A stretch of DNA of 25,439 nt from Anaerolineae bacterium. Lineage in GTDB: Bacteria; Chloroflexota; Anaerolineae; 4572-78. The notes beneath the pieces were generated by a model. That model saw only the letters and a program-made list of their open reading frames with translations. It did not search any database and was not told where the DNA came from. A program made the translations under genes and the position numbers. The stretch is from positions 1 through 25,439 of the forward strand of contig JALVZI010000393.1 in assembly GCA_027022125.1 (NCBI GenBank). The letters are read 5' to 3'. Of the stretch, positions 10,332 to 24,596 are shown piece by piece (within the stretch, counting starts at the first letter, position 1; every line of letters begins with the position of its first letter).

Positions 10332-10516
10332 CTTCACCCACCGTTTGGCACGCGCACATTCCACCCACGCTCATTTCGACCATTGGACGAAAATGAGTAT
10401 AATCCCCATAACTATTTTTGTTGAGAGTGCACACAAATTTCCCATAAATTGGTTGCAATTACGCAATATGTGTAGCAAAAATTGTGTTTTTGCACAAATG
10501 CGCTAGCCATACGCCT

Positions 10517-13500
10517 ATGAACAAGCATACCACCGAAATATTAACACGCATAAAACCATATTTGCCGCCGACACTCGACTTTTCTGCTGCCAAGAACCTG
10601 TCGGTGGACGATGCAACGACCATCGCCATTCATTTAGCATCATTGCGACAGGGTATTGCCACCTACCTGCCACGTTACCTGGTTGAGCAGATAGCACAAA
10701 ATCCTGAATCGGGGCAGGTGCGCGGCGAGTTCCGGTTTGGTGCAGTGATGTTCGCCGATGTATCCGGGTTCACCGCCATGTCTGAAAAACTCTCGGTATT
10801 GGGCAAAGAAGGCGCGGAAGAGATTACGGGGATTGTTAACGGTTATTTTGATAAAATGTTGCGCATCAGTTCAAAATTTGGCGGCGACTTGCTGAAATTC
10901 GGTGGAGATGCACTGCTACTTTTTTTTGAAGGCACAGACGGCGCGCACCGTGCGCTGACCACCGCTTGGGCAATGCAAGCCGCTATGGAGCAGTTTGCGC
11001 GGGTAAAAACCTCGCAAGGGACTTTCCCGCTGCGAATGAGTATCGGCATTGGAACCGGCAATATCTTTTTGGCGGAGTTGGGCACGCCGGAAAATATGGA
11101 ATATGCGGTGATGGGGCAGGCGCTTATCAATATGGCGCGAGCCGAAAGTATTGCCAACGCCGGCGAAATTGTGGTTGATGTGGCAACCCGCCGCGCCACC
11201 GAGTCGGTAGCAGCGTATGAGCCGGTTAAAAACTTTTGGCGCGTGACAAACCTGCTCGAAACACTCGGACCGGTGGCATATTCCAGTAAAATTTATCCGC
11301 GCCTCCCCAATCTGGTCGAGTCATCCATTGAAACATTGCTTGAATTTGCGTTGCGGCAGGTCAAAATCGTCAATGGGTTGAAGCCGTTTTTGCCCGAAGA
11401 ATTGCTGCACCAACTCATTCTCAATCCGCAGAACCCGCTGTTGCCCGGTTCGCATCGCCCCGTTACGGTAATGTTTGCCAACTTTTTTGGCATTGATGAC
11501 ATCATCGAAGCGTTGGGCGAACCGCACCAAAACACCATCACCCAAATTTTGAACGACCATTTCGTGACGATGAGTCGCATCATCAACCAATTTGGTGGGG
11601 TGGTGAATAAAGTTGATACCTACGCCATCGGACACCGCATTATGGCGTTGTTTGGCGTGCTGCGGGCACACGAAGACGACCCCCAGCGAGCCGTCCGCGC
11701 TGCGTTGGCGATGAACACGGCGCTGGCGGATGTGAACCGCCGCACCGCCGCACTTTTGCGGAAAATTTGCCCAATCGGCGAAAAATTCGGCGATATGCCG
11801 CTAAAACAGCGCATCGGGCTGAACAGCGGATTCGTCTTCGCCGGAAATGTCGGTTCGGCAACGCGGCACGAGTACTCGGTGATGGGCGATGAAGTCAATC
11901 TGACAGCGCGGCTGATGGGTGTGGCAAAAGAGGGAGAGGTGCTCATCAGCCACAGCACCGCCCGGCGGGTAGAAGGCGCATTCGACTTGCGCGAAAAAGC
12001 CCCGGTGCGCGTAAAGGGCAAATCGCAACCCGTACGAAATTTTGTGGTGCTGGCAGCACGGCAACAGCCATCGCGCTGGAAGAATCTTTCTGAATCGCCG
12101 ATGGTGGGGCGCGATGACGAATTGCAAACGGGGTTAGCCGCCATCGAGCAGGTTTTGCAGGGGCGCGGTACAATTCTGGTCATCAGCGGGGTGTCGGGTA
12201 TCGGCAAAACCCGTTTCGCCGAAGAATTGGCGTATCGCGTCGAACAGCGCGGGGTGGATTTGTTGGCGGGCATCTGTCTGTCATACGGCAAAACGATGAC
12301 CTACCATCCGTGGGCAGATATTCTGCGCAGTCATTTCGGTATTGCTCAAAACGATGATATTTCGGCGCGGGTGGCGGCGGTTAGGCGCGGTATGACTGCC
12401 ATCGGCGAGGGGGATTGGACGCCGGTTATTGCCGATGTGCTGGGGCTGGATGTGCCCGATAATGACCTGACCCGCGCCATTGACGCCAAATTGCGCCGTC
12501 AGCGCATTATGGATTTGACGGTAAAATTGCTGCAAACCCGCGCCGTGCAAAAACCGCTGCTGCTGGTGCTGGAAGATGCTCACTGGGCAGACCCCGCTTC
12601 GATGGAACTGATAAATTATGTGGCGCGAAACATTGCCGACCATCCGATTTTGCTGGTGTTGCCCCACCGCACCGACCCAGATTTGCCCGATTGGACGGCA
12701 TTTCCGCACGCCATACACATCCCACTGGTAGATTTACCCGATGATGCCTGTTTGGAAATTGCGCGGGGGATGGTCGGCGGGGTGGAACTTCCGGCGGAGT
12801 TACAGCAACTCATCCTGTCGAAAGGGGAAGGCAACCCGTTTTTTATCGAAGAGGTGGTGCGGGTGCTGATTGACAATCGGGTCATCAAAAAAATGCCCGA
12901 TGGCACATGGAAACTCGCCGGAAATTTGGCGGGGATAGAACTCCCCGATACCATTCACGGCATTATCATCAGCCGCATTGACCGCCTGCTGGAAATTGAC
13001 CGCCGCATTTTGCGGGTGGCATCGGTGGTGGGGCGTATTTTCGCCTATCGGGTGGTCAGCAGTGTGCAAAATTATGGCAGCACAGAACCCATCGTGCGCG
13101 AACATTTGGATTATCTGCAAAATTTGGGACTGACCGAACTCTTTCAGGTTGAGTCGCTGCTGTACCGGTTCAAACATCTCACCACCCGCGAAGTGGTGTA
13201 CGAAAGTTTGTCGTTTGAGCAGCGGCGCACACTGCACCGCCGCATCGCCGATTTTTATGAGCATGTTTTCGCCGATTCATTGGGTGAACGGATAGATTTA
13301 CTGGCATATCATTATTTTGAAGGACATGCGTGGATGAAAGCAATAGAATACAATTTGCGAGCCGCCCGGCACGCCCGGCGAGAATTTGCCAATGCCACCG
13401 CCGTTGAAGCCTACCGGCGGGTGCTGGAATCTGCCGCGAATGTGGAAGATACTGATACCACCGCCGCCCGACTGGAAGCACACGAATCGCTGGGGGATGT

Positions 13501-14713
13501 GCTGATGCTGATGGGGCAGTTCGATGATGCGCTGGCACATCTGTCGCAGGCGCGAGATATTGTGCAATCAACCGGCGATGCGCCCCGGCTGGTGGATATT
13601 TTCCGCAAAATTGCCGCTGTGTACGAGCGCCGCAGCGAGTTCGACACGGCGTTTGAGTGGCTGGAGCGGGGGTTGTCGCACCTGCCCGCCGATACGCCCA
13701 CCGTCGAAGCGGCGCGCATATATCTGCTCGGCGCGGGTGTTTTTCGGCGGCAGGGGAAAAACGAAGAGGCAATTCAATGGTGTGAAAAAACACTGCATGT
13801 TGCTGCGTCGATTGATTCTCGCCTTAGCCTGCAAACCATTGCGCAAGCCTATTATAATTTGGCGGGAATTTACACGCGGTACGGTGATTTTCAGCGGGCG
13901 ATACAGTTTTCGCTCGATAGCGTGAAAGTGTATCAGCAAATAAACGATGAGGTAGGACTTTCGCACGCCTATAATAATTTGGGAAATGTGTACAGCGATT
14001 TGGGCGATTGGGAAAAAGCCACCGAAGCCTTTGAACGCAGTCTTGCTGTAAAACAAAAAATCGGTGATGTGCTCTATCAAGGCTTCATCAGCAACAATTT
14101 GGCGAACATTCAAATGAATCGCGGCAATTGGGCAGATGCCGAGCGACTGTTCTCACAGAGTTTGGATGTGTGGAAACAACTGGGGGCATCACTGCCGCAC
14201 GCTGTAACCGCCAGCAATTTGGGGCAATTGCGACTCTACCAGCAAAATTTCCCCGAGGCGAAACATTTGCTGGCAACCGCCGAAGAAATTTTCGCCAGCA
14301 TCGAGTCAGAGGACTTTTTGCCGGAGTTGGAACGCCGCTGGGCTGAATATCATTTACTCACCGGCGATACCGATGCCGCGCTGAAACACATCCGGCGGTC
14401 GCTGGAGTTGGCGGTTCAGCAAGAGGCAAAATTGGAAGAAGGGATGTCGTGCCGTGTGCTGGGGCTGGTTCAAATGGAAAATGGGCAAAAAAAACTGGCG
14501 GAAATCTCGCTGCAGCGAAGTTTGAGAATTTTAACGGAACTGAACAGTACTTACGAAATTGCGAAAACAAATGTGGCATTTGGTTTATTATGGCAAAATG
14601 AAAATCCGGCAGCGGCAAAACGGTATTTGCAGGTGGCAATCGAAACATTCCGCTCATTGGGGGCAAAGACAGATTTGCGCCACACTGAAAATCTCATCAG
14701 CCACTTGCCATAA
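10517..14713 (+). CDS. Tandem class III adenylate cyclase - STAND/AAA ATPase - TPR protein (soluble adenylyl cyclase-like)
   Basis: Cyclase 1: MFADVSGFT, LLKFGGDALL. Cyclase 2: VMFANF, NKVD, EYSVMGDEVNLTARL. Walker A GVSGIGKT, Walker B LLVLEDAHWAD, GNPFFIEE; C-terminal TPRs (AYNNLGNVYSDLGDWEKA). ORF open from GTG 10484; ATG 10517 preferred. Confidence 0.92.
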   Translation: MNKHTTEILTRIKPYLPPTLDFSAAKNLSVDDATTIAIHLASLRQGIATYLPRYLVEQIAQNPESGQVRGEFRFGAVMFADVSGFTAMSEKLSVLGKEGAEEITGIVNGYFDKMLRISSKFGGDLLKFGGDALLLFFEGTDGAHRALTTAWAMQAAMEQFARVKTSQGTFPLRMSIGIGTGNIFLAELGTPENMEYAVMGQALINMARAESIANAGEIVVDVATRRATESVAAYEPVKNFWRVTNLLETLGPVAYSSKIYPRLPNLVESSIETLLEFALRQVKIVNGLKPFLPEELLHQLILNPQNPLLPGSHRPVTVMFANFFGIDDIIEALGEPHQNTITQILNDHFVTMSRIINQFGGVVNKVDTYAIGHRIMALFGVLRAHEDDPQRAVRAALAMNTALADVNRRTAALLRKICPIGEKFGDMPLKQRIGLNSGFVFAGNVGSATRHEYSVMGDEVNLTARLMGVAKEGEVLISHSTARRVEGAFDLREKAPVRVKGKSQPVRNFVVLAARQQPSRWKNLSESPMVGRDDELQTGLAAIEQVLQGRGTILVISGVSGIGKTRFAEELAYRVEQRGVDLLAGICLSYGKTMTYHPWADILRSHFGIAQNDDISARVAAVRRGMTAIGEGDWTPVIADVLGLDVPDNDLTRAIDAKLRRQRIMDLTVKLLQTRAVQKPLLLVLEDAHWADPASMELINYVARNIADHPILLVLPHRTDPDLPDWTAFPHAIHIPLVDLPDDACLEIARGMVGGVELPAELQQLILSKGEGNPFFIEEVVRVLIDNRVIKKMPDGTWKLAGNLAGIELPDTIHGIIISRIDRLLEIDRRILRVASVVGRIFAYRVVSSVQNYGSTEPIVREHLDYLQNLGLTELFQVESLLYRFKHLTTREVVYESLSFEQRRTLHRRIADFYEHVFADSLGERIDLLAYHYFEGHAWMKAIEYNLRAARHARREFANATAVEAYRRVLESAANVEDTDTTAARLEAHESLGDVLMLMGQFDDALAHLSQARDIVQSTGDAPRLVDIFRKIAAVYERRSEFDTAFEWLERGLSHLPADTPTVEAARIYLLGAGVFRRQGKNEEAIQWCEKTLHVAASIDSRLSLQTIAQAYYNLAGIYTRYGDFQRAIQFSLDSVKVYQQINDEVGLSHAYNNLGNVYSDLGDWEKATEAFERSLAVKQKIGDVLYQGFISNNLANIQMNRGNWADAERLFSQSLDVWKQLGASLPHAVTASNLGQLRLYQQNFPEAKHLLATAEEIFASIESEDFLPELERRWAEYHLLTGDTDAALKHIRRSLELAVQQEAKLEEGMSCRVLGLVQMENGQKKLAEISLQRSLRILTELNSTYEIAKTNVAFGLLWQNENPAAAKRYLQVAIETFRSLGAKTDLRHTENLISHLP

Positions 14714-14743
14714 AATGTTTCGAATTATTGGAGGATGGAACCC

Positions 14744-17700
14744 ATGAAACAACAGATAAAACTTTTGACGGCGATTTTCGGCGGTGTTTTTGCCGTGTTG
14801 GCGGTATCGCTAATGTTGCAGGTTGTCGGTGGGAAAATCGCGCCGGTATACGCCGATAGTGGCGCGATAATCCGTGTAGCGCGCAGCGGTACAAACGTTA
14901 ATACTTGTGGCGCGGAAGCTCAACCATGTCAAACTATTCAGTATGCAGTTGACCGTGCCGCACCGGGGGATGAAATTCAGGTGGCAGAGGGATATTACAC
15001 GGAATGGTCATCGCGGAACGGTATGACCGCCACACTGTTCATCACCAAATCGATTGTTATTCGCGGCGGGTATACCACTACCAATTGGAGTCTGCCTCCA
15101 CAACCGTTTACCCAAGTTGTTACACTTGATGCGCAGGGTAGGGGGCGGGGTGTGGTTATTATGTCAACCACTGCCACGCTTGAAGGGTTCGACATTACTG
15201 GGGGCAACGCCTTGGGAAACAGTGGCGGTGGCGTTTATGTTTATAATGCCCCCAGTTCATTTTTGCGGAATAATATTATCCACGAAAACTCTGCCGATTT
15301 TGGCGGTGGTATCTATGTTTTTAATTCTAGTGGCATCTCTTTGGAATGGAATGATATTTTCTCAAATACGGCGCAAATAAAAGGTGGGGGGATCTTTTTG
15401 GTTGATACAGCGGCGTTGGTGAATAGTAACCATATTTTTCAAAATACATCAAATATAAATGGCGGCGGTTTAGCCATTGGATTTTCGGAAGTTTCTACCG
15501 GTACCTTGCAATTGTGGGACAATATGATTGCCGATAACCGCGCTAACTCGGCGGGGGGGGGCATATATTTCCACAATACAGTTTCTGGAGTGGGTACAGA
15601 GGCTGTCAATAATGTGGTGATAGATAATATGCTGACCGGCACGTCTGCCAGCGGTAGTGGTATTTTTATGGCGAGCAATGGTACTGCGCCGAAATTTTTT
15701 CACACAACCATTTCGAACAATACCGGTGGCGACGGCATCGGAGTGCATGTTGAAGGGTCTTCTCCCATCGAATCGGTGTGGTTCACCAACACCATCATCG
15801 CCGACCAAAATACCGGTGTGAAAGCGTTGAACATTTCGGCGGGAACAACCGTCACGGTGAATATAGACCATGTTTTGTGGTTCAACGTGCTAACCCCCAC
15901 AGTCAATGGTAGTGGGGGGCAAGTGAATACTTTTAATGAAACTTTCGCCGACCCGATGTTCGACCCGGATGGGTTCCATCTCACTGCGGGGTCGCAGGCG
16001 ATAGACCGGGGTGTGGAAGCCGGTATCCCCACCGATTTTGATGGTGATTTCCGTCCCTTTGGTGCGTCGCCCGATTTGGGCGCAGATGAGTATAGTTCTG
16101 GGGGCTTTTCTCCGGTGACAAATGTATCGCTAACGGGACCATTTACGGCGTTGGTGGGCAGTGATGTTACGTTTGTGGCAACGGTTGACCCGCCGGATGC
16201 CACCCAGCCGATTCATTACACCTGGACGGCAACCGATAAGGGCGTGCAAGAGTTCGATACAAACCTTGTATCGGCAGTCACCATACATTGGACTTCTCCC
16301 GGACAGAAAAATGTTTTCGTGCGGGCGGAAAATGGCACCACTGCCAGTGCCACCGCATCACAGACCATCGCCATTTTGGGAGATACCTTCGAACCGAATG
16401 ACGTTTATACCGATGCCTACCCCATTGTGCCAGATACGCCGTACCTGTCGTTCATCAGTACTTTAACCGATGTGGATTGGTACACATTCAACATTACCAG
16501 GACTTCTAAAATTACGGTTACATTGGAGGGAACGCCGTACCTGCCCGATGATTACGACCTGTTTCTGGTTTCGCCGCTGCCGCCAACCCCATACCCCGAA
16601 AGCGATGTATTGAGCGAGTTTACCGATGGGGTGGATGTAGATGCTGTAGGCAATTTGTCATCCATCGGCAATTTATCGTCCATCGGCAATCTGTCGTCCA
16701 TCGGCAATCTGTCGTCCATTGGCAATCTGTCGTCTATCGGCAATTTATCGTCCATCGGCAATTTGTCATCTATCGGCAATCTGTCATCCATTTCCACCAA
16801 CCCCATCACCTACCCGGAATACATCCGCACTACGGCTTATCTCCCCGGCGATTACTATTTGGTAGTGGCGCGCGGCGAAAGTGCCGCACCGCATTACAAG
16901 CCGTACACGCTCACCCTGACCACCCAACCCATACCCTCGCCCACCTGCCAGTGGGTTGCCCCGCTGTCTGGCACGGTTGTTTTACCGCCGAACCCACCCG
17001 CGCCGTATCCCGATGCACATATCGGCGGCGAAACACTCATCTTGTGGAATTACAGCCGTATGGCACAGACATATGGTATCACCGCAGCGAATACTTTGAG
17101 TGGCACACTCAAAACACTGGCAGATACCGTCACTGGCACACTGGTTTCGGTGGAGCATAACCCTTCTGTGGCGACGGCATATAACAACTGGAATGCCAAC
17201 TATTGCAACCCCCGCGCCGCCAATGCGGTGGGCGATGCCATCAAAACCGCGTGGATGCAAAATTTCAGCGGAAAATATGTGGTGCTGGTCGGTTCGGATG
17301 AGATGATACCCTTCTACCGCTCGCCGGATATGACCACCATTGCCAACGAGCGCGAGTTTGCCCCGCACTCGCAACTGTCAGACGGGGCAATTTGGGGCGC
17401 ACTCAATCAGGGCTTTTTGCTCACCGACAATTTCTACGGGGTTCGCAAGCGCGGATTCTTGATGCGCGGGCACGGGCTGTGGGTTCCCACACTGGCGGTG
17501 GGGCGACTGGTGGAAACACCGGCGGACATCAAAAAAATGGTGGATGGTTATTTGAACAAGCCTGTGATTCCGGTGGATGATGTACTCATCACCGCGTATG
17601 ATTTTCTCACCGACAGCGCCCGGCTCATTTCCGATACCGTATCAACATGGAACGTGACCACCCAAACCACGCTCATCAATGAAACATGGGTCGTCACCGA

Positions 17701-19126
17701 TGTGGTGAATGCGTGGACGCAATATGTGCCGGGGCGCGATGTCGTTTCGCTAAACGCCCATTTCGAACCGTGGCGCGCCCTGCCCGCCGCCCCCAGCACC
17801 GGCTACGACGCCTTCGACCTGTTTTACAATTTCCACATTACCAACAGCAATACCATCAGCGACAGTCTGATTTTCTCGATGGGCTGTCATGCCGGGCTGA
17901 ATATGCCCGATGCGGATGTGGATACGCCGTATATTGATGCAGGGGGCAACCCGTGGGAGGTGAATCCCGATTTTCCGCAGGCGTTGGCGCAAAAAGCCAG
18001 CGTGATGGTCGGCAATACGGGGTACGGTTACGGGGTGGATGACTCGCCCGAATATACCGAATGGCTGATGTACCTGTATGCGAAAATGCTCGGTTCGCGG
18101 CACAATATGCCGGTGGGCGAAGCCCTGCAACGGGCAAAACGCTATTACATCGGTTCTGCGCCGAGCGGCGGCATTTCGGTGTATCACGAAAAGGTTTTGC
18201 TGGAAGCCACGCTGTACGGCTTGCCCATGCAGCAGGTGGATGTACCCAAACCGACCCCCATCAGCAATAGCGCCATCAGCGGGCGGTTCAGCGGAATGCA
18301 GTCTGCGCCACGCCCGATTGCTGCAACGGCATCAAATTTCATCAGTGCGACCATTACCCTGACACCGACGCTCAATCAAAGCGGCAACGGTTCCTATTAT
18401 TCACTGGGCGGCGAAATTCAAGCCAGTCCCGGACGACCGATACAGCCGCGCGGCACGCTGTTCATCAGCAGTAATGCCAATGGATTGCTGCCGCATGGCG
18501 CGGTACTGTTCGACGCTACCTTCACCGAGACCACCACCTTCAACCCGATGGTTACTCGTCCCATTACTGATGTCACCCTGTCCGAACCGGACCTGAATGT
18601 CGGTGGATGGTTCCCCAATAAATTGTGGGCGGTGAACCGGTTCGGGAAAACCAATGCAGGTGACGATGACCGGCTGGTGATTGTTGGCGGGCAGTTTAAA
18701 ATGACCGATTTCACAAACGGGGTTGGCACGGAACGAGTTTTCACCCGGATGAATCTGCGCGTTTATTACAGCGAAGATGGCAAAGATTACCAGCCGCCCG
18801 TTATCTGGAAGTCTCGCGGCGTGAAGTTCGATGACAAAATGATTGTGGAGGTCGATGTGGAAGACCCGTCGGGAGTGCAGGGGGTGGTGGTGAGTTATCG
18901 CCCTTCGGCTGACCCGCTGGCGATTCGCAGTCTCGAACTTTCACCCGCCGAGATTGACAACTTTGGCAATGGCATCTGGCGCGGCGAAATTCCGGGCGAC
19001 CCGAACGTGAGTTTTTATGTGCAGGCGGTGGATGCTGCGGGGAATGTGCAAATGGCGGGCAATAAAGGATTGTCTTTCGCCCCCGATGAACCGGTGATGA
19101 CCTACCTGCCGCTGGTGTTGAAGTGA
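14744..19126 (+). CDS. Large secreted/surface mosaic protein: signal peptide, parallel beta-helix, PKD-like, PPC-like domain with hexapeptide-repeat insert, clan CD C25/gingipain-like protease, C-terminal YLPLVLK motif
   Basis: GGAGG 9 bp before ATG 14744; signal peptide ending VYA-DS; GGGIY beta-helix repeats and DFDGDFRPFGASPDLGADEY; DTFEPND...DVDWY...DYDL (PPC-like); VVLVGSDEMIPFYR, LAVGRL, NAHF (His), SMGCHAG (Cys), VGNTGYGYG. Confidence 0.85.
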   Translation: MKQQIKLLTAIFGGVFAVLAVSLMLQVVGGKIAPVYADSGAIIRVARSGTNVNTCGAEAQPCQTIQYAVDRAAPGDEIQVAEGYYTEWSSRNGMTATLFITKSIVIRGGYTTTNWSLPPQPFTQVVTLDAQGRGRGVVIMSTTATLEGFDITGGNALGNSGGGVYVYNAPSSFLRNNIIHENSADFGGGIYVFNSSGISLEWNDIFSNTAQIKGGGIFLVDTAALVNSNHIFQNTSNINGGGLAIGFSEVSTGTLQLWDNMIADNRANSAGGGIYFHNTVSGVGTEAVNNVVIDNMLTGTSASGSGIFMASNGTAPKFFHTTISNNTGGDGIGVHVEGSSPIESVWFTNTIIADQNTGVKALNISAGTTVTVNIDHVLWFNVLTPTVNGSGGQVNTFNETFADPMFDPDGFHLTAGSQAIDRGVEAGIPTDFDGDFRPFGASPDLGADEYSSGGFSPVTNVSLTGPFTALVGSDVTFVATVDPPDATQPIHYTWTATDKGVQEFDTNLVSAVTIHWTSPGQKNVFVRAENGTTASATASQTIAILGDTFEPNDVYTDAYPIVPDTPYLSFISTLTDVDWYTFNITRTSKITVTLEGTPYLPDDYDLFLVSPLPPTPYPESDVLSEFTDGVDVDAVGNLSSIGNLSSIGNLSSIGNLSSIGNLSSIGNLSSIGNLSSIGNLSSISTNPITYPEYIRTTAYLPGDYYLVVARGESAAPHYKPYTLTLTTQPIPSPTCQWVAPLSGTVVLPPNPPAPYPDAHIGGETLILWNYSRMAQTYGITAANTLSGTLKTLADTVTGTLVSVEHNPSVATAYNNWNANYCNPRAANAVGDAIKTAWMQNFSGKYVVLVGSDEMIPFYRSPDMTTIANEREFAPHSQLSDGAIWGALNQGFLLTDNFYGVRKRGFLMRGHGLWVPTLAVGRLVETPADIKKMVDGYLNKPVIPVDDVLITAYDFLTDSARLISDTVSTWNVTTQTTLINETWVVTDVVNAWTQYVPGRDVVSLNAHFEPWRALPAAPSTGYDAFDLFYNFHITNSNTISDSLIFSMGCHAGLNMPDADVDTPYIDAGGNPWEVNPDFPQALAQKASVMVGNTGYGYGVDDSPEYTEWLMYLYAKMLGSRHNMPVGEALQRAKRYYIGSAPSGGISVYHEKVLLEATLYGLPMQQVDVPKPTPISNSAISGRFSGMQSAPRPIAATASNFISATITLTPTLNQSGNGSYYSLGGEIQASPGRPIQPRGTLFISSNANGLLPHGAVLFDATFTETTTFNPMVTRPITDVTLSEPDLNVGGWFPNKLWAVNRFGKTNAGDDDRLVIVGGQFKMTDFTNGVGTERVFTRMNLRVYYSEDGKDYQPPVIWKSRGVKFDDKMIVEVDVEDPSGVQGVVVSYRPSADPLAIRSLELSPAEIDNFGNGIWRGEIPGDPNVSFYVQAVDAAGNVQMAGNKGLSFAPDEPVMTYLPLVLK
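16649..16792 (+). repeat. Coding tandem repeat, 8 x 18 bp, (GNLSSI)8
   Basis: Eight in-frame units GGC AAT YTR TCR TCY ATY; every difference between units is synonymous. Confidence 0.97.
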
Positions 19127-19192
19127 TAAAAATGGGTATGGTTCATTTTGGCTGACAATTATCTTTACAGATGACCGGCTGTTGCCAATGTA

Positions 19193-19255
19193 GAGCAGGA
19201 AGCAAGGAGCAGGAAGCAAGGAGCAGGAAGTAAGAAGTAGGGAGCAGGGAGCAAG
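19193..19255 (+). repeat. Heptamer tandem array (RAGYARG x9)
   Basis: gagcagg aagcaag gagcagg aagcaag gagcagg aagtaag aagtagg gagcagg gagcaag. Confidence 0.8.
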
Positions 19256-19295
19256 GGAGTAACTGTTTAACGCACGCTACTCGTCTCAAACAATC

Positions 19296-19388
19296 GTAGG
19301 GGCGGCTCGCGAGCCGCCCCTACGGACTTTGGCGCGAATTGACCGATTTTTTTCGGTTTCGTAGGGGCACGCTGCAGCGTGCCCCTAT
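19296..19388. repeat. Dyad of two GTAG-type 28-bp palindromes
   Basis: GTAGGGGCGGCTCGCGAGCCGCCCCTAC (perfect palindrome, 19296-19323) and GTAGGGGCACGCTGCAGCGTGCCCCTAT (19361-19388). Confidence 0.85.
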
Positions 19389-19727
19389 ATTTTTCCCTGC
19401 CGATTTCACCCTTCAATACGCACTGCAGGCTACTCAGGATACGTTTTTCCCCTCTCCCCTGAACAGTTACTTTTTGTGAACAATAGTTGCAATACAGATT
19501 ATTCGTTCCTTTCCCAATCTGTTGTAGTGTTTGTACGCAACGCAAAACATCTACCTACTGCGAACACTGCCGGTCGCCCAAACCGGCACGTTTCACGAAA
19601 ATCGTTGGCAAAAGCGTGAAATCTGTAAAGATGATTTTAGGGCAACGAACCGTGCCGACCGTGCCGACGTACATAAACTTGTTGTGCAACTTGACAATTG
19701 TTAGATCCTGTGTTATTTGTTATTTAA

Positions 19728-19966
19728 CTGATGTTACGCAGCAAGCATGTTGACAAACATTTACCGGGTCACGAAAGATTATATATTGGGTCAAACGCAA
19801 AAACGTAGGGGCACGCTGCAGCATGCCCCTACGAAGCCGAGAGAAGCGGTCGGTTTTTCGAAAAATAACGGCAAAATCCGTAGGGGCGGCTCGCGAGCCG
19901 CCCCTACTTTCGCTATTATATTCCGGCTTGCCGGGGGAACTCAAATTCTCAACTGCGTAACATCAG
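19728..19966. mobile_element. MITE-like non-autonomous element, 239 bp
   Basis: Perfect 14-bp terminal inverted repeats CTGATGTTACGCAG (19728-19741) and CTGCGTAACATCAG (19953-19966), flanked directly by the repeat ATTTAA (19722-19727 and 19967-19972); no transposase ORF inside. Confidence 0.72.
19805..19907. repeat. Dyad of two GTAG-type 28-bp palindromes (inverted relative to 19296-19388)
   Basis: GTAGGGGCACGCTGCAGCATGCCCCTAC (19805-19832) and GTAGGGGCGGCTCGCGAGCCGCCCCTAC (19880-19907). Confidence 0.85.
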
Positions 19967-20040
19967 ATTTAATCCCAATTGCCTTGCGTAGCGTTACTTT
20001 AGAAACAACCGAATAATTTTCAATTTGGCTAGGAGGAACT

Positions 20041-20388
20041 GTGAAAAAAGTTTTGTATTTCTCGATTGTGTTGGCTTTAGTTGTGTTAATGTTGCCTGTT
20101 TTAAGTGGTGGCTGGCAAGGGGGAACGTCCATCGGCACCATTAACTCCATTGGAACTATCAACTCCATCGGTACCATTAACTCCATCGGCACGCTGAATT
20201 CCATCGGTACCATTAACTCCATTGGAACTATCAACTCCATCGGTACCATTAACTCCATCGGCACACTGAATTCCATCGGTACCATTAACTCCATCGGCAC
20301 GCTGAATTCCATCGGCACCATTAACTCCATTGGAACTATCAACTCCATCGGTACCATTAACTCCATCGGTAACCATAGTAGCTTTTAA
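20041..20388 (+). CDS. Secreted hexapeptide-repeat microprotein: N-terminal signal/hydrophobic leader + (SIGT[I/L]N)13-SIGNHSSF
   Basis: AGGAGG RBS (20031-20036), GTG start, MKK + hydrophobic stretch, 13 repeats with synonymous codon variation in this frame, intrinsic terminator downstream. Confidence 0.85.
20128..20370 (+). repeat. Coding tandem repeat, 13.5 x 18 bp
   Basis: Units TCC ATY GGH ACN (ATY AAC | CTG AAT); unit order a b c d c b c d' c d a b c. Confidence 0.97.
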
Positions 20389-20433
20389 AAAAGCCGTAAT
20401 GTTTAATACTTCGCTTTAAGTGCAATTGGGAAA

Positions 20434-20463
20434 AAAAGAACGAGATAGATGTCTCGTTCTTTT
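20434..20463 (+). terminator. Intrinsic (possibly bidirectional) terminator after the microprotein gene
   Basis: AAAAGAACGAGA-TAGATG-TCTCGTTCTTTT: 12-bp stem including flanking A/T tracts. Confidence 0.75.
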
Positions 20464-20522
20464 CTTGTTGGGTGACGTTGACACTTTTAGTTGTTTGTAA
20501 AAGTGGGGAAGAACCTGAAATT

Positions 20523-21683
20523 ATGAAAATAAAAACTATTGTTGTTCAAATTCTCTTGCTTGCGTTGTGGTTTTTTATCGGGTGGCGTGTGCGAGAACTG
20601 ACGTTGAGTTCGGATATAATCTCGTTGGAGCAATTACGGACAGTTATTGAAAATAATGTTTATTATAAAAACCCTCCACCTTCACCATCAGAACTGACTT
20701 TTGCCGCTTCTCGCGGCATGGTAAATTTGACAGACGACCCGCGTGCGGTGTTTATGGAACCCAATGTTGCCAAGGAATATATGAAAGACAAACAATCATT
20801 ACGAGCCGGTATCGGCTTTAAAATTGCCCACGAAGATGACCGGTGGGTAGTAACATTTGTCAACCCCGGTGAACAAGCAGAAAAAGCCGGACTTAAAGTT
20901 GGCGACATATTACTAAAAATTGACGATACACCGGTAGAAGATTATACGACATATATTGAAATCAGTATGTTAATCAGAGGTGAACCGGGAACGCCGGTAA
21001 CATTAACCGTTTTGCGAAATGGGCAACAAGTCCGCATTGATGCCATCCGTAAAAATCCTGAACAGGTAAGAATTCGTATGATTGGGACTGATATTGCTTA
21101 TTTGCGACAAGACGAATTTTCTATCCCGACCGCAGACTTGATGAAAAATAAATTGCAAAAATTACTTGATAATAATCCAAAAGGTTTGATTTGGGATTTA
21201 CGTTATAATGGCGGCGGTACGAAAATATCGCTGTTAAGAATTATGGGCTTCTTTTTTAAAGACGGTCCCATATTTTACGAAAAAACCAGAGATGGCGAAC
21301 CTCGTCTCAACCTTATTGAACCATCTGATTTCACCACAGATATACCGCTGGTTGTTTTAATTGATAAAAATACATATTCTTCACCGGAGGTTGCCTCTTC
21401 GGCAATTCAATACCGGCATCGTGGGATATTGGTTGGCGGGTCAACATTTGGTAAAGGCACAATAACTCAATTCTTCCTGTTTGCCAATGGCAGTGCGTTG
21501 CAGTTGAGTACTGAACACTGGCTGACACTCTCAAAAGAGTGGCTGGAAGGAAAAGGTGTATCTCCGGATATATATATTCAAGACGACCCTCAAACGCCCG
21601 ACGACGAACAATTGAACTGTGCAATTGCAATTTTGCGAAATCAAAATCAATCAGAAGATAATCTCAATAGCCTATGCCGGTAA
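20523..21683 (+). CDS. S41 family C-terminal processing peptidase with PDZ domain (CtpA/Prc-like)
   Basis: N-terminal hydrophobic anchor, PDZ (GIGF...AEKAGLKVGDILLKID), WDLRYNGGG, TYSSPE (catalytic Ser position), TFGKG (Lys), GVSPDI. ATG 20523 preferred over the ORF start at 20472. Confidence 0.9.
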   Translation: MKIKTIVVQILLLALWFFIGWRVRELTLSSDIISLEQLRTVIENNVYYKNPPPSPSELTFAASRGMVNLTDDPRAVFMEPNVAKEYMKDKQSLRAGIGFKIAHEDDRWVVTFVNPGEQAEKAGLKVGDILLKIDDTPVEDYTTYIEISMLIRGEPGTPVTLTVLRNGQQVRIDAIRKNPEQVRIRMIGTDIAYLRQDEFSIPTADLMKNKLQKLLDNNPKGLIWDLRYNGGGTKISLLRIMGFFFKDGPIFYEKTRDGEPRLNLIEPSDFTTDIPLVVLIDKNTYSSPEVASSAIQYRHRGILVGGSTFGKGTITQFFLFANGSALQLSTEHWLTLSKEWLEGKGVSPDIYIQDDPQTPDDEQLNCAIAILRNQNQSEDNLNSLCR

Positions 21684-21856
21684 ATCCGAATTGGAGAGAA
21701 TTATTGTAACCATGCAGTGTAGGTAACACAGCATTTAATCGTGGTTATCATTTTTAGCCACGAGTTTTCACGAATTTCACTGATTTTTTCTTAAAATTCG
21801 TGTAACTGCTCACTGTGTTGTGTTCGTCTCGAACTAAAGTTCAAGGATCAAAACTC

Positions 21857-21907
21857 AAGCCGACTTAAGTCGGCTTTGGCTTTGAGCGCGGAAATTTATT
21901 TCCGCGC
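21857..21907. repeat. Pair of palindromes (REP-like)
   Basis: AAGCCGACTTAAGTCGGCTT (perfect 20-mer) and GCGCGGAAAT-TT-ATTTCCGCGC. Confidence 0.65.
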
Positions 21908-21968
21908 GTTGACCGGTTACCGGTATCCGGCAAGGGTTTGATTTCCCCCTGCAAGCCAAAATACAGAC

Positions 21969-21996
21969 GCAGGGGCGGCTCACGAGCCGCCCCTAC
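21969..21996. repeat. GTAG-type palindrome, diverged copy
   Basis: GCAGGGGCGGCTCACGAGCCGCCCCTAC; two differences from the 19296 and 19880 copies. Confidence 0.8.
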
Positions 21997-22121
21997 AATG
22001 GTTCAGAATCTGTGTTCATCTGTGTACTATTTTTACCGCATCTGAACACGGTTTCGCGTTGCCAAAATTCTCATCAAAACAGCCGCCGCTGAACGGGCGG
22101 CGTTTTGCTGCCCGCCGCTCT

Positions 22122-24596
22122 TCAACCGAATGCCACCGCCTGCGCGATAGTGTCATCCGCGCCGAATGAAATGATTTGTTTGCCGCGATTGACGCGGTTG
22201 GCTTTGGGGAAATCTGCCACAGCGAGATGATGCCGCAACCCTTTGCCCGACATAATGTTGACCATCCCTTTGGCGGGCGCAACGGTTGCCGCGGCGACTT
22301 TTCCGGTGGCGGGGGTAATTTTCAGCGATTGCACCCCCTGCCCGCCGCGTCCCTGCGTGGGGAACTCTGCCAGCGGGATGCGTTTCGCCCAGCCGTGCTC
22401 GCTGACCAGCACCACCGCGTAATCTTTCTCATCCGGCGGGGCGATGGCGCCGGAAATGATGGCATCCCCTTTGCCCACTTTTATCGCCGCCACACCGGTG
22501 GCGCTGCCGCTCGCCTGCGGATTGACCGTCTCTTCTGCGAATTTTATCGCTTTGCCGTTTCTGGTGAACAGCATCACATTCTGTTTGCCGTTGGTGATGT
22601 CTGCCACCACAACTTGGTCATCACTGCCCAGCCCGCCCATCACGGTGAACCAGTGTCCCTCCCCCGCCGAAATGTCGGCGATGGCGGTGCGTTTCACTTT
22701 GCCATTGGTAGCCGCCAACGTCAGATAACTTTTCGGCGAGACAATCGCCCCTGCCACAATCACTTCCCCTTTTGCCAACCCCATGGCAGTGTTGGTGGTT
22801 TTATCGGGGATGCGGAAAATGGGTCCATACCACGCCCGTCCCCGGTTGGAAACCAGCAGCACTTTGTCGTCCTCTTTCGTTTTCAGATAGAATAACGGCG
22901 CGTCCACCGCCCGTTTCGAGATGCCTTTCGACTGTCTGCCGCTGAAACCTTTGGCGGGCACGCGGTACAGATTGCCACGGGTGGTGGCGGCGATAATCTG
23001 CGCCCCTTTCGGTTTCAGCAAATCTTCTTTCGTCACCAACCCGTCTTTGCCTTCTTCTTCCAGAATGACCGTTTTGCGCGGGGTGGCATAAGCCTCTTTG
23101 ATGTCGCGGGTTTCTTCCACCACCACCGCCAGCCGTTTCGCCTCCGACGCCAGCAGCGATTTGAGATATTTGATGCGGCGCGACAACTCTTTCCGCTCGT
23201 CATCGAGTTTTTTGCGTTCCAGCGCCGCCAGTCGCCGCAGTTGCATATCCAAAATAGCGGTGGCTTGTTCCGTGCTCAACTTGAATCGTTTCATCAGATT
23301 GGCGCGGGCGGTATCGGTGGTGCGAGATTTGCGGATGGTTTCAATCACCGCGTCAATATGGTCGAGCGCTTTCAGCAGCCCCAGCACAATGTGCAGACGG
23401 GCTTCGCGTTTTTTCAATTCGTGTTTGGTGCGCCGCACAATCACATCGAGCCGGTGTTCGATGAACAGCGTCAGCACGCGCGGCAGCGACAGATACTCCG
23501 GTTCACCATCCACCAGCGCCAAATTGATGATGCCGTAAGTGGCTTTCAGACTGGTTTTGCTGAGCAGTTGTTCCAGCACTTTGGGCGCGCGGTATCCGCG
23601 GGTGATGGTCACCACGATGCGCATGCCCTCATAATCCGATTCGTCGCGCAGGTCGCTGATGCCTTTGATTTTATCGTTCCGCACGCCATCGGCGATTTGG
23701 GTGAGCAGGGTGGATTTGTTCAGCCCGTATGGTATTTCGGTGATGATGAGTTTTCGCGCATCCTCCAAATTGCTCACCGGATTGCTGTTGCTGTCTTCGC
23801 CGGAAATAACCCCTTGCATGGTGATTTTTCCCTGCCCGGTGTTGTATGCCTGTTTGATGGTGTCCACAATTTCGCCGCCTTCGGGGCGTTTGCGGTAAAT
23901 GATGCCGCCGGTGGGAAAATCGGGTCCGGGGATATATTTCATCAGATGGTCAACGGTGATTTTTTTGCGGGCGCGCCAATTTTCCGCCATAAAAATGAGC
24001 GCATCGCACACCTCACCCAAATTGTGCGGTGGAATTTTGCACGCCATACCGACCGCAATCCCTTCACTGCCGTTGACCAGCAGGTTGGGGAATTTGGCAG
24101 GCAGATATTTCGGCTCTTTCAAGGTATTGTCGAAATTGTCCTGCCATTCGATGGTATCGGCGTCGATATCCGCCAGCAATTCTTCGGCGGGCGCCGCCAT
24201 CCGCGCTTCGGTATAGCGCATTGCCGCCGCGCCGTCGCCGTCAATCGAGCCGAAATTGCCCTGACCGTCCACCAGCGGCACGCGCATCGAAAAATCTTGC
24301 GCCATGCGCACCATCGCATCATAAATGGCGGCGTCGCCGTGCGGGTGGAATTTCCCCATCGTGTCGCCGACCACCCGCGCCGATTTGCGGTATTTCGCGT
24401 TCGAGCGCAGTCCCATTTGGTGCATGGTGTACAAAATGCGCCGGTGAACGGGTTTCAGCCCGTCGCGCACATCGGGCAGGGCGCGGTCTTTGATGGTTTC
24501 CACCGCGTAATTCAAATACGCCGATTTGAGCATACGGGCAAACTGTACGGTCGATTGCCCGGAAAGAATATCCATTGAAATTTGTTCGGGTGTCAT
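22122..24596 (-). CDS. parC: Type IIA DNA topoisomerase subunit A (GyrA/ParC family; probably topoisomerase IV-like)
   Basis: [30 protein letters not shown] (active Tyr), and a C-terminal beta-pinwheel of about six blades. The blade-1 GyrA-box is degenerate (FSGRQSKG) and there is no acidic tail. The parC versus gyrA call is inferred. Confidence 0.88.

What the first reader, a model, noticed from the sequence alone, without database searches (positions are those of the whole stretch)
20041..20388. 115-aa secreted microprotein made almost entirely of a hexapeptide repeat
A 29-residue leader (MKK + hydrophobic core, ending LSGGWQGGT) is followed by 13 SIGT(I/L)N units. Strong AGGAGG RBS and its own terminator suggest a separately expressed, possibly abundant transcript. 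Codon variation (ATC/ATT, GGC/GGT/GGA, ACC/ACT/ACG/ACA) is silent apart from the conservative I/L change, which indicates selection on the peptide. Regular Thr/Ser/Asn spacing could form a flat ladder (amyloid, ice- or mineral-binding surface). The period-3 hydrophobic spacing is not a simple alternating beta-strand, so the fold is open. An alternative reading is a multi-core RiPP-like precursor with a GG leader, but no modifying enzymes or peptidase-containing ABC transporter are visible nearby.
Basis: partly seen in the sequence, partly recalled or inferred. Interest (0 to 1): 0.8.

Follow-up and report, generated by a model that had tools for sequence, protein, structure and literature searches.

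The report
Secreted repeat microprotein paired with S41 peptidase
The 115-residue open reading frame is a real exported protein made of 13 copies of a six-residue unit, and it belongs to an undescribed family in Anaerolineae-type bacteria that is almost always encoded beside its own S41 peptidase, in genomes whose secreted proteases carry matching repeat arrays.

Summary
ORF 20041-20388 (+) has an AGGAGG ribosome-binding site, a GTG start, a 29-residue Sec-type leader, 13 SIGT(I/L)N units, a SIGNHSSF tail and a terminator-like hairpin. Nine of ten column changes between units are at third codon positions, so the peptide is under selection.

It is not an orphan. Searching outward from the neighbouring S41 peptidase (20523-21683) showed that 17 of 20 non-redundant loci of one S41 clade carry an adjacent small gene on the same strand. 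Each has a similar leader and a 6- or 7-residue tandem array running to the C-terminus. None of 142 loci with more distant S41 genes has one. Units differ widely (SIGTIN, GQMTAI, GRMSSI, GGWSWA, GGYDSWA and others).

These cassettes sit among cyclic-nucleotide signalling genes. The same genomes encode secreted proteases (C25-like here, S8 elsewhere) with arrays of matching unit type.

In this genome the cassette lies in a low-GC stretch flanked by REP elements that same-genus relatives lack.

Function is inferred. My leading reading is a cargo processed by S41 whose array pairs with the protease array. A multi-copy signal-peptide precursor is the main rival. No curated family or paper describes this. 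No transcription data were found.

The parts
20031..20036 (+). Ribosome-binding site AGGAGG, 4 nt before the GTG start
   Evidence: It is unchanged in a divergent strain's contig (run X4).
20041..20388 (+). Microprotein gene, 115 aa plus stop
20041..20127 (+). Leader of 29 residues: MKK, a hydrophobic core, an ML-P motif and a likely signal-peptidase site about 3 residues after the Pro
   Evidence: It aligns with the leaders of L040, L041, L038 and L043 (M-K/Q-K ... VM-x-LP). The two strain variants at 20061 and 20064 are both synonymous.
20128..20361 (+). 13 tandem 18-nt units encoding SIGTIN (10) and SIGTLN (3)
20362..20385 (+). C-terminal variant unit and tail, SIGNHSSF
   Evidence: Other family members also end in short non-unit tails or exactly at a unit edge.
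20431..20466 (+). Terminator-like hairpin followed by a U-run, between the microprotein and S41 genes
   Evidence: (inverted repeat I8)
20523..21683 (+). S41 C-terminal-processing-type peptidase with an N-terminal membrane helix, a PDZ domain, and Ser286 and Lys311 invariant across the clade
14735..19126 (+). Secreted C25-like cysteine protease, 1463 aa, ending in YLPLVLK
16652..16795 (+). GNLSSI x8 array inside a PPC-like domain of the protease. In register it reads SIGNLS, against SIGTIN in the microprotein
10484..14713 (+). Cytoplasmic tandem cyclase, AAA-type STAND ATPase and TPR protein, 21 nt upstream of the protease gene
   Evidence: Homologues sit beside the cassette in L040, L045 and L126.
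19295..19907 (.). Cluster of REP-type palindromes (GTAGGGGC...GCCCCTAC) on the left flank of the low-GC stretch
   Evidence: 114 copies genome-wide; very high depth in metagenomes
21971..21996 (.). REP-type palindrome on the right flank, before gyrA

Best explanation
Shown: the ORF is a genuine gene for an exported protein, consisting of a Sec-type leader, 13 SIGT(I/L)N units and a short tail. It is this genome's member of an undescribed, fast-diverging family of 'leader plus short-unit array' microproteins. The family forms a two-gene cassette with a dedicated, membrane-anchored S41 serine peptidase, which here is the next gene. The cassette recurs among cyclic-nucleotide and STAND-TPR signalling genes. 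Genomes that carry it encode secreted proteases (C25-like here, S8 subtilases elsewhere) with internal arrays of the same unit class and period. Inferred mechanism: the protein is exported and its leader is removed. Its free C-terminus is then taken up by the S41 peptidase, which matures or trims the array. The array pairs strand-to-strand with the similar array on the secreted protease. The microprotein would thus act as a diffusible partner, either a scaffold or a competitor, that sets where or how long that protease acts. The adjacent cyclase-STAND-TPR protein would control or read this state.
For: Evidence that it is a gene: RBS, start, leader and hairpin; 9 of 10 inter-unit changes at third codon positions; and two synonymous variants in a strain from a second study. 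Cassette: the S41 clade (at least 35% identity including its N-terminal helix; alignment A1) has an adjacent same-strand leader-plus-array ORF in 17 of 20 non-redundant loci. Three of these are cut by contig ends inside or just before the array. The other three loci are truncated or carry a transposase. None of the 142 loci with more distant S41 genes has such an ORF. The S41 Ser and Lys are invariant. Context: a cyclase-AAA-TPR protein is adjacent in the window, L040, L045 and L126. A MalT-type STAND with a response-regulator-GAF-cyclase is adjacent in L038/L042 and L039. A GAF-GAF-HD protein lies between the microprotein and S41 genes in L126 and L187. A histidine kinase overlaps the end of the S41 gene in L047. 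Matching arrays are seen in five genomes: window C25-like GNLSSI with SIGTIN; G043 C25-like GAMTSI with GRMSA/GKVGF; L045 S8 GGYESWA with GGYDSWA; L047 and L121 S8 GGWAWT with GGWSWA; G042 S8 GGYTTWT with GGYSTWA-type units. Own-genome pairing scores highest of all 120 permutations. Synonymous sites differ between the paired arrays, so this is not recent gene conversion.
Against: There is no transcript or protein evidence: no RNA run was listed. The S41 processing step and the array-to-array contact are inferences from linkage and similarity. Same-genus relatives keep the protease array without any cassette, so the protease array does not need the microprotein. In two of five genomes the best-matching protease array belongs to another genome of the same class, and kinship inflates the permutation result. 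Unit period varies between 6 and 7, which argues against one fixed solenoid geometry. Operon links to cyclases, GAF-HD proteins and a kinase fit a signalling role at least as well. The microprotein's GC3 (0.60) differs from that of S41 (0.36), so the two may not share one history.
Confidence: 0.4

Rival explanations
1. Multi-copy pro-peptide. After export, the S41 peptidase (perhaps with the secreted protease) cuts the array into unit-length hexapeptides. These act as diffusible, lineage-specific signals that are taken up and sensed by the TPR domain of the cyclase-STAND protein, with a cyclic nucleotide as output.
For: Units are near-identical at peptide level although synonymous sites have diverged. 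A conserved leader carries a hypervariable cargo. A dedicated peptidase is always adjacent. A leaky-terminator-like hairpin lies between the cargo and peptidase genes. The cassette is operon-linked to cyclase-STAND-TPR, GAF-HD, response-regulator-GAF-cyclase and kinase genes. The 6- or 7-residue unit length is in the range of known peptide signals (my knowledge). In the loci read, every unit is followed directly by Gly (or Asp-Gly in L122) (my reading of the units printed).
Against: No bacterial precedent for spacer-less polyprotein signals is known to me. It does not explain why secreted proteases carry matching arrays, or why the window's two units differ at 3 of 6 positions. No peptide importer is linked in the loci read. 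S41 enzymes are known for single cuts or for degradation, not for measured cutting (my knowledge).
Confidence: 0.25
2. Self-sufficient structural protein. The array folds or polymerises into a beta-solenoid or amyloid-like fibre, coat or adhesive on the cell surface. S41 removes a C-terminal cap to start assembly. The resemblance to the protease arrays reflects common origin only.
For: AlphaFold2 gives a right-handed triangular beta-helix with mean pLDDT 83.6. Its closest low-rmsd match is bactofilin 6ria_A (Z 10.8, rmsd 2.0 A). The composition is Gly, aliphatic or aromatic, and Ser/Thr/Asn, with neither charge nor Pro. No capping elements are present. Fibre subunits paired with dedicated peptidases are known (TasA with SipW, the Fap system; my knowledge).
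Against: AlphaFold2 produces confident but unrealistic solenoids for perfect repeats (PMC11795689). ESMFold2 gave the array pLDDT 32-35. Foldseek found no significant match (best E 0.15). Natural solenoids rarely have identical units (my knowledge). Period 6 and period 7 members coexist in one family. Operon links to signalling enzymes are left unexplained.
Confidence: 0.15
3. Classical RiPP precursor, modified in the cytoplasm behind a Gly-Gly leader.
For: It has a repetitive core. There is a weak sub-threshold match to the thiocillin RiPP model (E 0.0069, 16.6 bits against a cut-off of 25).
Against: The leader is a hydrophobic Sec-type signal. No modifying enzyme or peptidase-ABC exporter was seen in the ORFs read in this window or in the family's other loci. 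The model match is below threshold and covers no stretch.
Confidence: 0.03
4. Not a functional gene: a DNA tandem repeat that happens to be open in several frames.
For: Three frames are open across the repeat. The ORF is absent from the 15-billion-protein collection. No RNA run was listed.
Against: Third-position bias, RBS, leader and terminator. The same architecture beside the same peptidase clade recurs in 17 loci whose repeat DNA is unrelated.
Confidence: 0.03

Closest known systems
Pro-peptides of RRNPP-type signalling (Phr, PapR, AimP) with TPR receptors, matured by secreted S8 proteases (my knowledge)
   Same: A small Sec-exported precursor is encoded next to a TPR-containing cytoplasmic protein. 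Maturation is extracellular and proteolytic. Active units are 5-7 residues. Sequences diverge quickly between lineages.
   Different: Here the cargo is 7-13 or more spacer-less tandem copies. The constant partner is an S41 peptidase. The TPR protein is a STAND ATPase fused to nucleotide cyclases, not an RRNPP regulator. The proteases themselves carry arrays.
Polyprotein pheromone precursors such as yeast alpha-factor (my knowledge)
   Same: A signal peptide followed by tandem identical units kept identical by selection.
   Different: That system is eukaryotic, has Kex2 spacer sites, longer units and no linked peptidase gene.
Functional-amyloid or fibre subunits with dedicated peptidases (TasA-SipW, Fap, curli CsgA/CsgB; my knowledge)
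   Same: A small secreted repeat protein sits in a cassette with a processing enzyme. A second protein carrying similar repeats could nucleate or join the assembly.
   Different: No curlin, Fap or TasA family match was found. The units are far shorter and identical. The partner peptidase is S41. The cassette is linked to signalling genes.
Matched amyloid signalling motifs in adjacent genes (fungal NWD2/HET-S; bacterial BASS motifs with NLR-like STAND proteins; my knowledge)
   Same: Sequence-matched short motifs occur in neighbouring genes, next to a STAND ATPase, in multicellular bacteria.
   Different: In those systems the motifs are single, cytoplasmic and lie on the STAND protein itself. 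Here the matched elements are tandem arrays on two exported proteins.
S41 peptidases Prc-NlpI, CtpA-LbcA, CtpB and the D1-processing CtpA (my knowledge)
   Same: The window enzyme has a PDZ plus S41 catalytic domain with the Ser/Lys dyad and faces outside the cytoplasm.
   Different: It scores below every NCBIfam equivalog cut-off. The clade has its own conserved N-terminal helix and a constant array-microprotein neighbour.
Bactofilin and left-handed beta-helix hexapeptide proteins
   Same: The predicted model has three short strands per 18-residue turn. Bactofilin superposes at 2.0 A. L040 and L041 give weak sub-threshold LpxD/LpxA matches.
   Different: There is no Pfam match. Those proteins are cytoplasmic with non-identical repeats. 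Left-handed helices match only as mirror images (rmsd about 11 A).

Membership tests
New family: leader plus tandem-array microprotein of the S41 cassette | N-terminal hydrophobic Sec-type leader with an M-K/Q-K start and a VM-x-LP-like end | tested here: met
   The alignment with L040, L041, L038 and L043 shows M1, K2, L5, V15, L18 and P19 invariant.
New family: leader plus tandem-array microprotein of the S41 cassette | Tandem 6- or 7-residue units running to, or within about 15 residues of, the C-terminus, with no other domain | tested here: met
   The same holds in L038-L050, L121-L126 and L187.
New family: leader plus tandem-array microprotein of the S41 cassette | Same-strand neighbour of an S41 peptidase of the clade with the conserved N-terminal helix | tested here: met
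   The S41 gene starts 135 nt downstream. The clade is defined by alignment A1. Linkage holds in 17 of 20 clade loci and 0 of 142 others.
Hexapeptide-repeat left-handed beta-helix proteins (Pfam Hexapep) | Match to the family model and left-handed helix geometry | tested here: not met
   No Pfam family at E <= 0.01. The model is right-handed, and left-handed structures align only at rmsd about 11 A.
Bactofilin | Match to the family model in a cytoplasmic protein without a signal peptide | tested here: not met
   No Pfam match and a signal leader is present. Only the predicted fold resembles bactofilin, and that prediction is unreliable for perfect repeats (PMC11795689).
RiPP precursors | Family model match plus nearby modifying enzymes or a leader-cleaving exporter | tested here: not met
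   The thiocillin model scores 16.6 bits against a cut-off of 25. No such enzyme was seen in the ORFs read in the window or in the related loci.
RRNPP-type pro-peptide | Small exported precursor next to its TPR receptor, with the mature peptide binding the TPR domain | tested here: inconclusive
   Adjacency to a TPR protein holds in the window, L040, L045 and L126. The TPR protein is a STAND-cyclase, not an RRNPP regulator. Peptide binding cannot be tested here.
Curli, Fap or RTX beta-roll repeat proteins | Match to the respective repeat models | tested here: not met
   No Pfam or NCBIfam hit for the window protein or for nine relatives. CsgA and FapC appear only as non-significant Foldseek rows.

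The most novel reading that the evidence does not exclude
The cassette is a bacterial polyprotein-type peptide communication system. The S41 peptidase cuts the exported array into unit peptides (here six residues). These act as lineage-specific signals read through the TPR sensor of a STAND-cyclase, with a cyclic nucleotide as output. Secreted proteases carry arrays of the same unit class, so enzyme release and signal are coupled.
Probability: 0.25. Interest if true: 0.9.

Novelty: new variant of a known kind. Interest (0 to 1): 0.72.

Why it matters
Small repeat ORFs like this are usually not called as genes. This one is absent from a 15-billion-protein collection, and three related contigs break inside or just before the array. 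The family has therefore gone unseen. It gives a concrete, testable system in filamentous Chloroflexota, with four parts: an exported array protein, a dedicated S41 peptidase, array-tagged secreted proteases of two unrelated catalytic classes, and cyclic-nucleotide/STAND signalling proteins. The way repeat units track each other between two exported proteins suggests a specificity code outside the cell. That code could be peptide signals or sequence-matched assembly. Either would be new biology for this phylum and would assign a function to an S41 peptidase clade.

Tried and rejected
- Direct homology searches with the microprotein failed. A word-indexed search gave one weak, unrelated hit. 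An exhaustive phmmer search gave 366 hits that are unrelated low-complexity repeat proteins. A profile of four family members found nothing at E <= 0.001. The ESM Atlas gave no usable hit.
- Exact look-up: neither this ORF nor the antisense ORFs are in the protein collection.
- Small-ORF hits in 40 relatives were off-frame or low-complexity, not family members.
- The complex prediction for S41 residues 40-386 with microprotein residues 78-115 scored 0.12 against a mark of 0.34: no support, and not evidence against binding.
- Foldseek against the PDB gave no significant match.
- Rfam found nothing meaningful in 19100-22150.
- No RNA run was listed.
- Literature searches found no description of the cassette. 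The conflict-systems paper PMC7159879 does not mention S41 peptidases.
- Ice binding was dropped. The source is a hydrothermal-vent metagenome, and the aromatic, 7-residue relatives do not share a Thr/Asn ladder.
- In the L050 genome no second array-bearing protein was found with that locus's microprotein as query.

Full report
**Observation.**
The ORF at 20041-20388 (+) is as described. AGGAGG lies 4 nt before a GTG start. A 29-residue leader follows, with MKK, a hydrophobic core and the end ...[12 protein letters not shown]. Then come 13 units (10 SIGTIN, 3 SIGTLN), the tail SIGNHSSF and a stop. Tandem Repeats Finder reports period 18, 13.8 copies, and a 108-nt higher-order period. In the whole 3.3-Mb, 685-contig assembly only two period-6 peptide arrays exist. 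Both are in this window. The second is GNLSSI x8 inside the upstream 1463-aa protease.

**Is it a gene?**
- The five DNA unit types differ by at least ten column changes, with 9 at codon position 3, 1 at position 1 (Ile to Leu) and none at position 2. By my own binomial arithmetic this has a chance of about 4e-4.
- The two antisense frames are open, but there the same changes alter residues.
- A hairpin with a U-run follows the stop (-21 kcal/mol, z -2.8).
- Contigs of four vent-metagenome runs from two studies hold the 5' part of the gene. In the divergent run X4 the upstream region has indels, while the two differences inside the leader, at 20061 and 20064, are both synonymous.
- No RNA run was listed.
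- No contig bridges 20157-20340, so the unit number is not independently confirmed.

**Local setting.**
The gene order is:
- a cyclase-AAA-TPR STAND protein (10484-14713);
- 21 nt later, a C25-like protease (14735-19126);
- a 914-nt spacer with REP palindromes;
- the microprotein;
- the hairpin;
- an S41 peptidase (20523-21683), which has an N-terminal membrane helix, a PDZ domain and an S41 catalytic domain;
- convergent gyrA.

The stretch from about 19400 to 21900 has GC 0.38-0.46, against about 0.55 on both sides. It is flanked by a palindrome family with 114 copies in the genome.

In three same-genus genomes the protease gene is followed directly by gyrA, with spacers of about 110-560 nt. 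The best S41 match in 40 relatives is 37% identical and lacks the N-terminal part. The cassette is therefore an insertion here or a loss there.

GC3 is 0.36 for S41 but 0.60 for the microprotein, which matches the host genes. This difference is unexplained.

**The protease array is old.**
Orthologues across the genus, family and order keep an array at the same point of a PPC-like domain. Their units differ: GNLSSI, GNLGAI, GNLGSI, GNLNAI, GQIGNI, GQIGAI, GFVSNI. All follow the pattern G-x-aliphatic-x-x-I.

**The family.**
Direct searches with the microprotein found only unrelated low-complexity proteins.

Searching from the S41 gene succeeded. Its closest homologues, at 35-44% identity and sharing the N-terminal helix, were fetched with their flanks. 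Of 20 non-redundant loci of this clade, 17 carry a small ORF directly upstream, directly downstream or within about 4 kb, on the same strand. Each ORF is a hydrophobic leader followed by a tandem array reaching the C-terminus.

The units found include:
- GQMTAI-type
- GRMSS(I/V)
- GKVGFI/GRMSA(V/I)
- GGWSWA
- GGWLWS
- GGIGWA
- GG(Y/F)TWA
- DGFSWA
- the 7-mers GGYDSWA/GNDGAWS, GGYNSWS, GGEYVWN/GGFESWA and DRMVWSG

Three contigs break inside or just before the array (L043, L046, L048). The three loci without a microprotein are truncated (L125, L127) or carry a transposase where the gene would be expected (L039).

None of the 142 loci with more distant S41 genes has such an ORF.

The leaders of the aliphatic subgroup align with the window's leader (M-K/Q-K ... 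VM-x-LP). No Pfam or NCBIfam model matches any member.

**Neighbourhood.**
- Cyclase-AAA-TPR proteins flank the cassette in the window, in L040 (42% identical to the window's), in L045 and in L126.
- A MalT-type STAND and a response-regulator-GAF-cyclase bracket the S41 gene in L038/L042 and L039, with 11-14 nt gaps to the STAND gene.
- A GAF-GAF-HD protein lies between the microprotein and S41 genes in L126 and L187, and directly before S41 in L125 and L127.
- A histidine kinase overlaps the end of the S41 gene in L047.
- Among the non-cassette loci only one has a cyclase-STAND neighbour.

**Matching arrays.**
S8 subtilases with C-terminal arrays sit next to the cassette in L045 (GGYESWA), in L047 and L121 (GGWAWT) and probably in L122, where the gene is cut by the contig end.

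In two genomes without an adjacent protease, searching with the microprotein found one elsewhere. One is an S8 with GGYTTWT x11 (G042). The other is a C25-like protease with GAMTSI x7 in its PPC-like domain (G043).

Unit class (aliphatic or aromatic) and period (6 or 7) agree within all five genomes. Own-genome pairing gives the top score of 120 permutations, and three of five microproteins match their own protease best. Kinship inflates this result.

Paired arrays differ at synonymous sites, so the match is held at the peptide level.

**Structure.**
AlphaFold2 on the single sequence gives pLDDT 83.6 with a three-residue strand every six residues. Foldseek finds only non-significant solenoid rows. 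VIA-align shows low-rmsd matches to right-handed triangular helices (bactofilin, 2.0 A). Left-handed hexapeptide enzymes match only at about 11 A, which I read as mirror images.

AlphaFold2 is documented to invent such solenoids for perfect repeats (PMC11795689). ESMFold2 left the array at pLDDT about 33. The fold therefore stays open.

**Mechanism.**
Shown:
- The protein has the features of an exported protein.
- Selection acts on the peptide.
- It is constantly linked to one S41 clade with an intact Ser/Lys dyad.
- It is recurrently linked to cyclic-nucleotide and STAND signalling genes.
- Array-bearing secreted proteases of matching unit type occur in the same genomes.

Inferred: S41 acts on the array through its free C-terminus, and the array works through its likeness to the protease arrays.

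I rank the readings as follows:
- An S41-matured array that pairs with the protease array as a scaffold or competitor: 0.4.
- A multi-copy signal precursor read by the TPR-cyclase: 0.25.
- A stand-alone fibre or coat: 0.15.
- A classical RiPP: 0.03.
- Not a gene: 0.03.

The signalling context favours the second reading. The matched arrays favour the first. Relatives keep the protease array without the cassette, so the microprotein modulates the protease array rather than enabling it.

**Comparison and verdict.**
The cassette resembles several known systems in logic: RRNPP pro-peptides, polyprotein pheromones, fibre subunits with dedicated peptidases, and matched amyloid motifs next to STAND proteins. 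It meets the defining tests of none of them.

Literature searches found no description.

I rate this an undescribed gene family and cassette, a new variant of the 'exported cargo plus dedicated peptidase' kind. Its function is still to be shown.

Noticed in passing
window 19295-19907, 21971-21996: REP-type palindromes (GTAGGGGC...GCCCCTAC) occur 114 times in the assembly. They show 50-fold excess depth in vent metagenome contigs and bracket the low-GC stretch. Many metagenome joints run from one palindrome to another, including 19412 to 22007, which would skip the whole cassette.
   Followed up: partly
window 19728-19741 and 19953-19966: Perfect 14-nt inverted repeats lie 211 nt apart just upstream of the microprotein gene. 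No parent element was sought.
   Followed up: partly
window 19103-19123; L047 3700-3763; L009-L017 protease ends: Secreted proteases of two unrelated classes (C25-like and S8) end in the same Y-(L/I)-P-(L/I/V)-(V/I)-(L/M/F)-K-like tail. It may be a sorting or anchoring signal in this group. No curated model was tested.
   Followed up: no
window 20041-21683: GC3 is 0.60 for the microprotein (0.45 in its leader and about 0.65 in the array, my count) but 0.36 for the S41 gene. Host genes are at 0.60-0.69. The two cassette genes may have different histories, or the array may have been remodelled in the host.
   Followed up: partly
L038 8619-8861 (= L042): An 80-aa ORF with a weak Frankia_peptide (PF14407) hit lies between the MalT-type STAND gene and the microprotein gene, preceded by a 39-aa ORF.
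   Followed up: no
L124 7893-11841; L048 1350-5298: In the GGYNSWS lineage the S41 gene is followed by an Mrr-type nuclease (which also matches a NACHT-associated inactive REase model), an LPG_synthase_C protein and a Band_7/SPFH protein. This hints at a conflict-system setting.
   Followed up: no
L043, L046, L048, L121, L122 contig ends: Public contigs repeatedly end inside these arrays or just before them. The family and the protease arrays are therefore probably under-represented and mis-counted in short-read assemblies.
   Followed up: partly
window 16652-16795 and orthologues (L002-L007, L009-L017): The protease array sits where PPC-type domains normally have one strand, just before ...STNP. 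Unit number (5 to about 13) and sequence vary between relatives while the position is fixed.
   Followed up: partly
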